A DNA stretch of 17,057 bases from a virus (taxonomy: Duplodnaviria > Heunggongvirae > Uroviricota > Caudoviricetes), in IMG/VR virus record IMGVR_UViG_2713897042_000003, positions 1 through 17,057 of that record; one strand, 5' to 3'. Positions within the stretch are counted from its first letter, which is position 1; the number at the start of each line of letters is the position of its first letter. Below are positions 12,001 through 15,000 of this stretch, one piece after another. The position numbers were made by a program.

Positions 12001-15000
12001 TTGCTGCATATTCATCACGCAACGCCCCAAGCTGACTAATCAGTGCAGGAACAACCTTATCGGCGGTCAGTTTTCCGTTATCCGCCATGGCCTTCAGATC
12101 CTTACGGGCAACACCCATTCCCGCAGCCAGCGCACGAATAACACGATCGCCGTTCTCATTCACAGAGTTAAATTCTTCACCGCGCAGCACTCCCTGCGCC
12201 AGTGCCTGACTGAACTGCGTGATCACCGAACTGGCTTCTGCTGTACTGGCACCGGATAATTTCAGGCCCGTGGAGATCGCCTCGGTGACTTTCAGTACCT
12301 CCTCAGAACTGTAGCCATACTCCCGCATGGAAGCTGCAGAGCGGGCAAAAAGGCTGGCGTTATCAGAAAACGCCGTTCCCGTTCTCTGGCTGATTGCCAT
12401 TAATTCACGTTGTGATACCTGAAAATCATCACTGGACTGTGAAGCCTGCTTCAGACGGGCATTTACTGAATTCCACTCATCGGCGAGAGAAATAAGATGA
12501 CCGGTAGCAAAAGCTCCGGCAAATGCCCCCGCCATATTCAGTGCCGAAGATTTAGCTGTATTTATCTGATCCGTCACTTCTGCCAGTGCACGCCGCATTT
12601 CACGGGATGCAGCAGCGGACTGCCGGCCTCCGTTCTGCATGGTACGGTAGTAATCCTGCCCCATACGCGAAGCCCGGGAGATCTCTGACTGGAATGACCG
12701 GGAATTTGCCGAGATTTTAATAATCAGTTCACGTAATGTCGCCACACTCATTCTCCGGACGAAAAAAACCGCCGAAGCGGTTATGTTGACTCACTGAGAC
12801 ACTATTAAAAGCGCGTTTTCCAGTCCGGCAAATGGATCTGAGACGCCTTCTGTCTGCTCTTGTTCCCACTGAAGAAGCGCATCATTCAGTGGGACTTTGA
12901 CACCCTGCGCACCGTAAACCGCAGAAACTATCTGGGCAGCCCGGATATCAGCCCGCTCGTCACCCAGCGGGCTGAACCTGTCAAATTCTGCCCACATCAT
13001 GATTTCTGATGCGGACATTTCCCGGCGTAACTCTGACAATGTGCGCCCCATCCTGAGCGCCAGCATCATCAGAAAACGCATCCCCGGAAGCTCTACTTTT
13101 TTTTAACCTCGCCGGCATCACTGATCAGTTCCAGAGACTGCCGAAGAAGCCGCGCATGCACCGGGCCATACACGGCAATCACCTGTTCACGATCATCCTC
13201 TGAAAATACAGGTTGCAGTCCGGTATCACACAGAACATCAATGAACAGTTCAACATCTGCCTCCAGATTTCGGCGGGCGCGCTCCGCAACGGATAACGGT
13301 GTCTCATCATCTTTTGCTTTAACGATCTCCTGCCAGCGCAACCAGGCTTCTGCAGAAGGTTCCCGTAATACAACCGTTGCCCCTTCCCATTCAGGCACAT
13401 CAACAGTTTTATGGCGAAACCCCGACATCGTTGCCAGTGCCAGATTGCGGATATTTTTAGTCATCACATCTATCCTCATTAACTGACGGTAACAGTGCAG
13501 GAAGTGGAGGTCACCTTGTTAACAGGGCTTGCTGAATCAGAAATCTCGCAGGTATACGCACCGGCATCACCTGATGCTGCTGATGCCTTACTGAATGTTG
13601 CCGCCGTCTGTCCGGAAACAGGAGAACTACCTTTCTTCCAGACATAAGAATAAGGCGGCACACCACCGGCAGCCTCAACCACCATTTCGAGTTTCGCTCC
13701 GGCAGAAACCTGCAGCGTGCTGTTTAAATCTACCTTCACTTTCAGCGGCTCTGTCGTCAGCACAGGTTTACCTTTCAGGCGCAGGGAAAACGTTGCAGCC
13801 ACAACACCATTAGTTCCTGCAGACCAGGTATGCTGACGCACCTCTGCCATAAAGGTAAATCCGTTGCCTGACGGAAAAATAACTTTAAAGCCATACGTGG
13901 TGTCATTGTCATAGGCACTGCGCAACGCGTTCTGGGCAGCATTGAGGTAAAAGTTGCCTGACATGGAAATCTCTGACGCGGCACCAAGGCCGTTAATATT
14001 TTCCTGCTCAACAGAACACAGCGTGGTGACATCAATATCCTGCTTTTGTCCTGCGGTAAACTGCACCTCTTTGATTGTACAGCTCAGGCCAAGATAGCTG
14101 GCAGAATCCAGGGTTTCTGCTGTTACCGGTGCAGACGAAATCATAATTTTCGTCAGTTGCGAACGCTCAAAATTAGAGGACATACTCGTCTCCTGAAAAT
14201 AAAAAACCCGCCAGCGGCGGGTGGGTAAAATCATTAACGACCTCAGGCTATTACCTGAAATTCAAGCGTGGCTCTGCTCAGACGGGAATCAGGATCATAA
14301 CCCTGAGTTTTAGAAATAACGGAGGGTGCAAGTTGCCTTACCGCATCAAGCGCCTGCTCACGGATATCATCTGCGTCATCAGGTACTGTTGCCCAGACAT
14401 CGATCTGCACGGTAATTCTGGATTCAGCCTGACCATCAAGCACATCAGACGCAGTGTCAGACACCACAGAAAATACCAGCCATGGCGGAGATACCGCAGG
14501 CTTTCCCTCCGTCAGCGGGACCACATAAGGATAAACCTGTCCTCCGGCCAGTTGAGACAGCAGGGAATACAGTGTGGTCTCTCTCATTTACTTAAGACCT
14601 CATCAATAGCCTGATTCATTCGCTGTATGGCAATCTGTGCTGCCAGTTCCTCTGTCGTATCGAAAGCCGGGCGAATGAACGGATGCGCGGGCATGTTTAT
14701 CGTTCCCAGCTCCACAAAGCGCCAGTAAAACGCATTTCGGGGATCACTGGCTTTCATGCTGTTATCACTGTTTCCGGTTCGCAGGTTCCGTCCACGAATG
14801 TGGACACCCGAGATAATTTCCCCCCGACGCTTTGAACGCTGAGTGAGAACAACCACATTTTTCTTCAGTTTCCCGGTTCGCTCCGGCGCACGTTCAACAA
14901 CTGCATCCCGCATAACTTCAGCACCGGCACGGGTGGCATCGCGCAGTACCTTATTGTTTTCTGCCCTGCTGAGCGTCTCCAGATCCCGTGCAATATCCGC

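What the first reader, a model, noticed from the sequence alone, without database searches (positions are those of the whole stretch)
12791..13479. Canonical G/GT -1 frameshift, with T unable to initiate on its own
The G-like ORF ends ...GAG GTT AAA AAA AAG TAG, and the -1 frame is open right through the heptamer into the 96-codon T-like frame. That frame is closed by TAA immediately upstream of the heptamer and its first ATG has no SD, so T should be made only as a G-T fusion. I did not look for a downstream stimulatory structure.
Basis: partly seen in the sequence, partly recalled or inferred. Interest (0 to 1): 0.4.

Follow-up and report, generated by a model that had tools for sequence, protein, structure and literature searches.

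The report
HK97-type phage tail chaperone frameshift
This is the well-known programmed -1 ribosomal frameshift that lets a lambda/HK97-like E. coli prophage make a short tail-assembly chaperone and a longer fusion from two overlapping genes; it is real, but ordinary and already described for its close relatives.

Summary
On the minus strand, a 123-codon G-like gene ends GAG GTT AAA AAA AAG TAG. The heptamer A AAA AAG lies at 13102..13096. A -1-frame TAA sits directly 5' of it and the 0-frame TAG directly 3'. The -1 frame then runs 101 codons to TGA at 12793..12791.

G is Pfam Phage_TAC_1 and the -1 ORF is Phage_tail_T. They lie between the major tail gene and the tape-measure gene. The predicted 224-aa fusion is 64% identical, end to end, to the 224-aa HK97 gp14, which GenBank annotates as 'translated due to a -1 frameshift'. 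HK97 gp13 has a solved structure (2OB9).

Across 52 distinct junction sequences from Enterobacterales and phages, the -1 ORF stays open and an in-phase A_AAG is always present. Conserved residues (V-x-x-P-x-x-x-F-L-M) lie upstream of a non-conserved first ATG. That supports fusion as the selected route to T. Low-level reinitiation at the window's ATG 13081 cannot be excluded.

I found no conserved downstream RNA structure and no dnaX-like upstream SD. The adjacent stop codon is the only recurrent context feature.

Published reporter assays on this HK97-like cluster gave 6-7% frameshifting.

Verdict: already known, low interest.

The parts
13093..13464 (-). G-like tail assembly chaperone gene (123 codons + TAG), the product of standard decoding
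   Evidence: Pfam PF06222 Phage_TAC_1, E = 2.4e-58, covering residues 1-123. phrog_344 tail assembly chaperone. RefSeq CDS WP_000164661.1 has the same limits. PDB 2OB9 (tail assembly chaperone; sequence matches HK97 gp13), E = 2.6e-49.
13473..13477 (-). Shine-Dalgarno GAGGA for the G start at ATG 13464 (8-nt spacing)
Evidence: Anti-SD duplex -6.1 kcal/mol.
13096..13102 (-). Slippery heptamer A AAA AAG, in phase X XXY YYZ with the G frame
   Evidence: Sequence. The same in-phase heptamer occurs in 60 of 82 non-redundant relatives. An in-phase A_AAG is present in all of them, and K123 is invariant.
13097..13104 (-). A8 homopolymer that contains the heptamer
   Evidence: Longest homopolymer in the window. 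Run length is 3-8 in the 52 relatives tabulated and 9 in L079/L080; in all those tabulated the A_AAG keeps the same phase.
13093..13095 (-). 0-frame stop TAG, immediately 3' of the heptamer
   Evidence: Sequence. The stop is directly adjacent to AAG in 63 of 82 non-redundant relatives.
13103..13105 (-). -1-frame stop TAA, immediately 5' of the heptamer; it limits the productive shift window to 10 nt
   Evidence: 'ov 10'.
12791..13096 (-). T segment in the -1 frame (101 codons + TGA), read after G13096 is re-read
   Evidence: Pfam PF06223 Phage_tail_T, E = 3.6e-19. phrog_337, and positions 126-220 of phrog_14766.
12791..13464 (-). Predicted GT fusion, join(13464..13096,13096..12791), 224 aa
   Evidence: 64% identical over residues 1-224 to HK97 gp14 (224 aa). 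The 224-position profile phrog_14766 is matched by both halves. tblastn finds both halves, in two frames, in 226 phage records.
13079..13081 (-). First ATG of the T frame, used as the start of a separate 96-aa CDS in RefSeq; probably not a real initiation site
   Evidence: RefSeq CDS WP_001211641.1. There is no spaced SD. The codon is not conserved, even among close relatives.
13031..13074 (-). Predicted hairpin starting 21 nt 3' of the heptamer; judged not to be a stimulator
   Evidence: z = -1.75. RNAalifold finds no consensus structure in 18 relatives. Covariation is no better than in the slid controls.
13479..14234 (-). Upstream neighbour: major tail protein gene
   Evidence: phrog_158 major tail protein, E = 9.7e-110.
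9518..12751 (-). Downstream neighbour: tape-measure protein gene
   Evidence: Pfam Phage_HK97_TLTM 1e-93, TMP_3, Tape_meas_lam_C.

Best explanation
The window carries the tail module of a lambda/HK97-like E. coli prophage, about 99% identical to phages Evi and phi467 over the 821-nt query 12700..13520.

Most ribosomes translating the chaperone gene G stop at TAG 13095..13093 and release a 123-aa chaperone. A minority slip back one nucleotide. This happens either when the single E. coli tRNA-Lys occupies AAA-AAG of the heptamer A AAA AAG, or when it occupies AAG in the P site with the TAG waiting in the A site. The tRNA re-pairs with AAA-AAA. The ribosome then reads GTA GAG CTT... in the -1 frame and makes a 224-aa G-T fusion (...EVKKK-VELPGMRF...).

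By analogy with lambda gpG/gpGT, the G part of both proteins coats the tape-measure protein. The rare T domain recruits the major tail protein. The frameshift rate therefore fixes the G:GT ratio that tail assembly needs.

Shown here: the sequence anatomy, the homology to HK97 gp13/gp14, and conservation of the shift site and of the open -1 frame.

Inferred: that the shift occurs in this phage, its rate (probably a few per cent), the roles of G and GT, and that the T portion is not made on its own.
For: - Anatomy.
- Domain identity and gene order (capsid, connector, head completion, gp10-like, gp17-like, major tail, G, T, tape measure, M, L, K, I, J).
- The fusion is 64% identical over all 224 aa to HK97 gp14, which has the same length. 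HK97 and mEp234 records state 'translated due to a -1 frameshift'. Bcep176 annotates gp69/gp69' as the G and T equivalents.
- In 53 loci from other Enterobacterales species and 80 viral contigs, the -1 frame is open for about 95-130 codons wherever the locus is intact, while the +1 frame is not.
- An in-phase A_AAG is invariant. The heptamers are A AAA AAG (60), G GGA AAG (5) and G GAA AAG (6) among 82 non-redundant junctions.
- The 11 residues between the slip site and LALR have a fixed length and a conserved P and F, yet lie upstream of a non-conserved first Met.
- Literature: lambda G:GT 30:1 and the chaperone roles (PMC5009743). A_AAA_AAG and A_AAG are among the most shift-prone motifs in E. 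coli because its sole tRNA-Lys pairs better with AAA (PMC5009743; PMC4066793). GST-MBP reporter assays on two members of a 41-gene HK97-like tail-chaperone cluster gave 6% and 7% frameshifting (PMC3711429).
Against: - There is no direct evidence for the fusion protein from this phage.
- RefSeq and most phage records annotate G and T as separate CDSs.
- No conserved 3' structure or properly spaced 5' SD was found. The rate therefore rests on the heptamer and perhaps the adjacent stop.
- In-frame ATGs lie 11-26 nt after the G stop, so some reinitiation is conceivable.
- An A8 run could also allow a little transcriptional slippage.
Confidence: 0.88

Rival explanations
1. T is made mainly as a free 96-aa protein. 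Ribosomes that terminate at TAG 13095..13093 reinitiate (translational coupling) at ATG 13081, or at ATG 13069 or 13066. This is what the RefSeq annotation implies.
For: An ATG lies 11 nt after the stop, and RefSeq and phage Evi call a 96-aa CDS there. A G-rich CCGGGG precedes the ATGs, with anti-SD dG of -4.5 to -5.7 kcal/mol.
Against: The spacing of the G-run is wrong: 0 nt to ATG 13081 and 12-15 nt to the next two. The ATG is replaced by ATA, ATT or GTG in close relatives whose G protein is 90-100% identical. The first Met position ranges from residue 3 to 33. Xenorhabdus and Providencia relatives have no ATG for 59-83 nt. Conserved residues with no indels lie upstream of the ATG. The homologous HK97 product is annotated as a fusion.
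Confidence: 0.07
2. The fusion is real but arises from transcriptional slippage. RNA polymerase adds one A in the A8 run, and standard translation of the A9 mRNA gives G-T.
For: The A8 run is the longest homopolymer in the window. Bacterial RNA polymerase slippage on A/T runs is documented (PMC5009743).
Against: Efficient slippage is reported for runs of 9 or more, and this run has 8. Relatives keep the arrangement with runs of only 3-7 A (G GGA AAG, G GAA AAG, x GCA AAG), always in the same phase and always ending in G. Phase and the AAG matter for ribosomes, not for polymerase.
Confidence: 0.04
3. There is no functional recoding. The overlap is a chance or decayed arrangement in a defective prophage.
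For: Three of 75 near-identical relatives carry A7 and two carry A9 variants, so the tract does mutate. The heptamer count in the window is not above chance.
Against: The tail module is complete and intact. The 821-nt query spanning G-T is 100% identical in the 15 best-listed complete E. coli genomes, and 119 of 902 matching genomes are at least 99% identical; it is about 99% identical in isolated phages. The arrangement is conserved across genera.
Confidence: 0.01

Closest known systems
Phage HK97 gp13 / gp14 (tail assembly chaperone and its -1 frameshift extension; gp13 structure PDB 2OB9)
   Same: The Pfam pair is the same (PF06222 + PF06223). The fusion length is the same (224 aa), with 64% identity end to end. 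The position between the major tail gene and the tape-measure gene is the same, and the Lys AAG at the shift point is the same. A putative terminator lies just upstream of the tape-measure gene in both.
   Different: The HK97 shift site is G GAA AAG, with the G stop 15 nt further on. The window has A AAA AAG abutting TAG. HK97 has the gp15 moron between T and the terminator; the window has only a 39-nt gap.
Phage lambda gpG / gpGT (Levin, Hendrix & Casjens 1993; Xu, Hendrix & Duda 2004, 2013, 2014)
   Same: The logic and genomic position are the same, and the T domain belongs to the same Pfam family, PF06223. The outcome is a low-level -1 shift on an X XXA AAG heptamer near the end of G. The roles and the 30:1 ratio come from PMC5009743.
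   Different: Lambda G is PF06894, not PF06222, and there is no BLASTP similarity. Lambda uses G GGA AAG, and its G continues a few codons past the site. Lambda T is longer (144 codons annotated).
E. coli dnaX and IS3/IS911-type A AAA AAG frameshift cassettes
   Same: The heptamer is identical, and the tRNA-Lys re-pairing rationale is the same.
   Different: Those cassettes use an SD-like element about 10 nt upstream and/or a hairpin or pseudoknot 5-8 nt downstream to reach tens of per cent. Here the SD-like GAGG ends 2 nt from the heptamer and is not conserved, and no conserved structure exists.
'Phage tail assembly chaperone' fs-gene cluster of Antonov et al. 2013 (PMC3711429)
   Same: It is a cluster of 41 prokaryotic fs-genes with similarity to an HK97 protein. 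Reporter assays on two members gave 6% and 7% frameshifting.
   Different: I could not confirm that this exact sequence was among the two tested. The held supplementary files contain no matching text.

Membership tests
Conserved G/GT-type tail-chaperone frameshift of long-tailed phages (Xu, Hendrix & Duda 2004) | Two overlapping ORFs located between the major tail protein gene and the tape-measure gene | tested here: met
   Major tail 13479..14234, G 13093..13464, T frame 12791..13096, tape measure 9518..12751, all on the minus strand.
Conserved G/GT-type tail-chaperone frameshift of long-tailed phages (Xu, Hendrix & Duda 2004) | The second ORF is in the -1 frame and a slippery sequence lies within the overlap | tested here: met
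   A AAA AAG lies in phase inside a 10-nt window bounded by the -1 TAA and the 0-frame TAG.
Conserved G/GT-type tail-chaperone frameshift of long-tailed phages (Xu, Hendrix & Duda 2004) | The arrangement is conserved among diverged relatives | tested here: met
   82 non-redundant junctions from Enterobacterales, Burkholderia phage and coliphages all keep the open -1 ORF and an in-phase A_AAG.
Conserved G/GT-type tail-chaperone frameshift of long-tailed phages (Xu, Hendrix & Duda 2004) | The downstream ORF lacks its own translation start, so T exists only as a fusion | tested here: inconclusive
   There is no spaced SD and the ATG is not conserved. However, ATGs exist 11-26 nt after the stop in this window, so reinitiation cannot be excluded from sequence.
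Conserved G/GT-type tail-chaperone frameshift of long-tailed phages (Xu, Hendrix & Duda 2004) | A fusion protein is produced at a low, fixed ratio; both products are needed for tail assembly and absent from virions | not testable with these tools
   This needs protein work. Published values are 30:1 for lambda and 6-7% for the HK97-like cluster.
HK97 gp13/gp14 protein family (Pfam PF06222 + PF06223) | The G part matches Phage_TAC_1 above the gathering score | tested here: met
   195.9 bits against a cut-off of 25, covering the whole profile. PDB 2OB9, E = 2.6e-49.
HK97 gp13/gp14 protein family (Pfam PF06222 + PF06223) | The -1 part matches Phage_tail_T above the gathering score, and the fusion is collinear with gp14 | tested here: met
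   69.4 bits against a cut-off of 25.9. BLASTP residues 1-224 against 1-224, 63.8% identity, E = 1e-109.
Lambda gpG family (Pfam PF06894 Phage_TAC_2) | The G protein matches PF06894 | tested here: not met
   The window G hits only PF06222. Lambda G hits only PF06894. There is no significant BLASTP match. The system works like lambda G, but G is not a member of that sequence family.
dnaX-type stimulated frameshift cassette | SD-like element about 10-14 nt 5' of the heptamer and a stable hairpin 5-8 nt 3' | tested here: not met
   The SD-like GAGG ends 2 nt from the heptamer and is absent in relative L070, whose G protein is 90% identical. The nearest stable hairpin starts 21 nt downstream and is not conserved. 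No Rfam family reaches threshold.
Programmed transcriptional slippage | A homopolymer long enough for efficient RNA polymerase slippage (9 or more A/T in bacteria), with phase irrelevant | tested here: not met
   The run is A8. Relatives have runs of 3-7 with strictly conserved phase. The threshold is from PMC5009743.

The most novel reading that the evidence does not exclude
In this HK97-like chaperone family, the 0-frame stop codon directly 3' of the invariant A_AAG may be the working stimulator (a 'shifty stop'). Ribosomes with tRNA-Lys on AAG in the P site and a stop in the A site would slip back one base. That would explain why 11 relatives that have lost a tandem-slippery heptamer (x GCA/GAA/GTA AAG) all keep the stop immediately adjacent. 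It would also explain why no RNA structure is conserved. The window's A AAA AAG TAG would then work by either or both routes.
Probability: 0.3. Interest if true: 0.3.

Novelty: already known. Interest (0 to 1): 0.1.

Why it matters
The practical value is for annotation. RefSeq and most phage records split this locus into two CDSs ('tail assembly chaperone' and 'tail assembly protein T'). They omit the 224-aa fusion that is probably the only functional form of T. The 821-nt query spanning G-T matches at 80% or more coverage in 877 of 5,426 complete E. coli genomes. It adds nothing new to the biology of recoding or tail assembly.

Tried and rejected
- **Downstream stimulatory RNA.** Single-sequence folds give a hairpin at 13074..13031 with z = -1.75, starting 21 nt after the heptamer. 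A 146-nt fold gives z = -3.7. RNAalifold on 18 diverged relatives gives no consensus pairs. Explicit pair counts show 72% paired against 70% in shuffles, and covariation no better than the slid controls. Rejected as a conserved element. The inner GCGCUC/GGGCGC stem mirrors the conserved codons for A-L-R..G-R.
- **Upstream SD-like stimulator.** GAGG is present in the window at -7.2 kcal/mol, but it ends 2 nt from the heptamer. In relatives its strength and position vary, and it is absent in L070. Rejected.
- **Rfam.** Nothing near threshold, so no known frameshift-element family reached threshold.
- **NCBIfam.** No model matches the fusion.
- **In-frame 'natural fusions' in the protein database.** P0001-P0003 come from single short contigs and have garbled or deleted junctions. 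I treated them as indel or assembly artefacts, not as evidence.
- **Supplementary tables of PMC3711429.** No text match for the tested cassettes, so I cannot say whether this exact sequence was assayed.
- **Heptamer frequency alone.** Not significant.

Full report
**What is in the sequence**

The finding lies on the minus strand. Reading 5'->3', an ORF that the ORF listing reports as 13479..13093 ends ...GGC GAG GTT AAA AAA AAG TAG. The last three sense codons are 13104-02, 13101-13099 and 13098-96, and the TAG is 13095-93.

The in-phase X XXY YYZ heptamer A AAA AAG is 13102..13096. It lies inside an A8 run, the longest homopolymer in the window.

The -1 frame reads TAA (13105-03) AAA AAA GTA GAG CTT CCG GGG ATG (13081-79). 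It stays open to TGA 12793-91.

The region in which a -1 shift can be productive is therefore only 10 nt, and it consists of the heptamer itself ('ov 10').

The one refinement concerns the G start. The likely start is ATG 13464, with GAGGA 8 nt upstream, giving a 123-aa product. This is the RefSeq start, and the Pfam model is covered from residue 1. The ATG at 13479 overlaps the upstream gene's stop and has no SD.

**What the genes are**

- G is Pfam Phage_TAC_1 (PF06222, E = 2.4e-58).
- The -1 ORF is Phage_tail_T (PF06223, E = 3.6e-19).
- The upstream neighbour is a major tail protein.
- The downstream neighbour is an HK97-type tape-measure protein.

The rest of the window is a complete siphovirus morphogenesis module in the lambda/HK97 order. 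It runs capsid, connector, head completion, gp10-like, gp17-like, major tail, G, T, tape measure, M, L, K, I, J.

A 224-position PHROG profile (phrog_14766) is matched by G over positions 1-121 and by T over positions 126-220. Fused proteins of this length are therefore already in phage databases.

The 821-nt query 12700..13520 is about 99% identical in Escherichia phages Evi and phi467. It is 100% identical in the 15 best-listed complete E. coli genomes. It is present at 80% or more coverage in 877 of 5,426 complete genomes.

RefSeq annotates two separate CDSs, 'phage tail assembly chaperone' and 'phage tail assembly protein T', the latter starting at ATG 13081.

**Relation to known systems**

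The predicted fusion, join(13464..13096,13096..12791), is 224 aa. It is 63.8% identical over residues 1-224 to HK97 gp14, which is also 224 aa.

The HK97 record annotates gp14 as a two-piece CDS 'translated due to a -1 frameshift', alongside gp13. The Hendrix-laboratory record for mEp234 says the same. Bcep176 annotates gp69/gp69' as the lambda G and T equivalents.

PDB 2OB9 (tail assembly chaperone; its sequence matches HK97 gp13) matches G at E = 2.6e-49.

Lambda T falls in the same Pfam family, PF06223. Lambda G is PF06894 and has no detectable similarity. The system therefore works like lambda G/GT but belongs to the HK97 gp13/gp14 family.

From the literature:

- Lambda G and GT are made at 30:1. 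Both bind the tape measure through the G part, and the T domain recruits the major tail protein. Neither is in the virion (PMC5009743).
- A_AAA_AAG and A_AAG are among the most shift-prone motifs in E. coli, because its only tRNA-Lys pairs better with AAA than with AAG.
- Antonov et al. found a 41-member 'phage tail assembly chaperone' cluster similar to an HK97 protein. They measured 6% and 7% frameshifting for two members (PMC3711429).

**Comparative test**

I fetched 80 viral contigs and 53 loci from other species, with G identity running from 100% down to 46%.

Wherever the locus is intact, the -1 frame across the G stop is open for about 95-130 codons and the +1 frame is not.

Anchoring on the invariant C-terminal Lys (K123), all 82 non-redundant junctions carry an in-phase A_AAG:

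| Motif | Count |
|---|---|
| A AAA AAG | 60 |
| G GAA AAG (HK97 type) | 6 |
| G GGA AAG (lambda type) | 5 |
| x GCA/GAA/GTA AAG | 11 |

Over the 52 distinct junction sequences, the A run ranges from 3 to 8 bases and the A_AAG phase never changes. L079/L080, which could not anchor, carry nine A's ending AAA TAG. This argues for ribosomal rather than transcriptional slippage.

**Can T start on its own?**

In the window, the only G-rich stretch before ATG 13081 abuts it with zero spacing. It lies 12-15 nt from the next two ATGs.

The comparison is more telling.

- The ATG codon is ATA, ATT or GTG in relatives whose G protein is 90-100% identical (L051, L070, L036, L079).
- Among 52 distinct T N-termini, the first Met is at residue 6 (the window's position) in only 15. 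It is at residues 9-12 in 31, and at 26 or 33 in four.
- The 11 residues between the slip point and the LALR motif have a fixed length in 36 of 38 distinct N-termini and a conserved pattern, V-x-x-P-x-x-x-F-L-M.

Coding constraint therefore begins at the slip site, upstream of any start codon. Fusion is the selected way of making T.

This does not exclude low-level termination-reinitiation at ATG 13081, 11 nt past the TAG.

**Stimulators**

- A hairpin is predicted at 13074..13031, but it starts 21 nt after the heptamer and has z = -1.75.
- RNAalifold finds no consensus pairs in 18 diverged relatives.
- Explicit pair counts show no covariation beyond the controls.
- The upstream GAGG ends 2 nt from the heptamer. 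That is far from the dnaX-like spacing, and it is not conserved.
- Rfam gives nothing near threshold.

The only recurrent context feature is the 0-frame stop directly after AAG. It occurs in 63 of 82 junctions, including all 11 that lack a tandem-slippery heptamer. The one-sided Fisher p is 0.044, uncorrected for phylogeny. This suggests a 'shifty stop' contribution but does not establish one.

**Verdict**

It is a member of an already described, experimentally grounded class. Its own protein family has an annotated frameshift, a solved structure and reporter measurements.

What is missing is only the annotation of the fusion in this prophage lineage. Novelty: already known. Interest: low.

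Noticed in passing
window 12760-12782 (minus strand): A terminator-like hairpin, AACCGC-TTCG-GCGGTT followed by T7, fills most of the 39-nt gap between the T stop (12791) and the tape-measure ATG (12751). HK97 and mEp234 records annotate a putative terminator at the equivalent place. There it follows the gp15 moron, which this window lacks. It may be a moron remnant, or it may attenuate tape-measure expression.
   Followed up: partly
L047, L052, L069 (A7); L079, L080 (A9, AAA TAG); L103: The A-run varies in length among near-identical relatives. The A7 variants put G into another frame, giving a 160-aa ORF that matches database clusters P0005/P0006. These may be real inactivating indels at a homopolymer hotspot or sequencing errors.
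   Followed up: partly
L088, L097, L099, L108, L112, L113, L115, L116, L129, L131, L136: These relatives from Pantoea, Klebsiella, Erwinia and other genera have no tandem-slippery heptamer (x GCA/GAA/GTA AAG). All have the 0-frame TAA immediately after AAG. This fits single-tRNA P-site slippage at a stop codon.
   Followed up: partly
window 13462-13481 (minus strand): The stop of the major tail gene (TAA 13481-79) overlaps an in-frame ATG (13479) of the G ORF. The SD-backed start is ATG 13464, so the mechanical ORF is 5 codons too long.
   Followed up: yes
window 4559-6208 (+) and 8480-9190 (+): Long ORFs of 549 and 236 aa lie antisense to the J-like and L-like tail genes in the mechanical ORF list. 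They are probably shadow ORFs.
   Followed up: no
window 12762-12864 (minus strand): Sub-threshold Rfam matches to isrK and rsmX (14-16 bits against gathering scores of 50-56) overlap the terminator hairpin. They are most likely a hairpin artefact.
   Followed up: no
window 13479-14234 (minus strand): The major tail protein carries a C-terminal Ig-like domain (Pfam Ig_2/Ig_3, and PHROG Hoc-like matches over residues about 140-250).
   Followed up: no
database proteins P0040, P0091, P0102, P0104: In these proteins the G or T domain is joined to unrelated domains (GpJ C-terminus, tape measure, glycoside hydrolase, terminase small subunit). They are probably gene-call or assembly chimeras on short contigs.
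   Followed up: no
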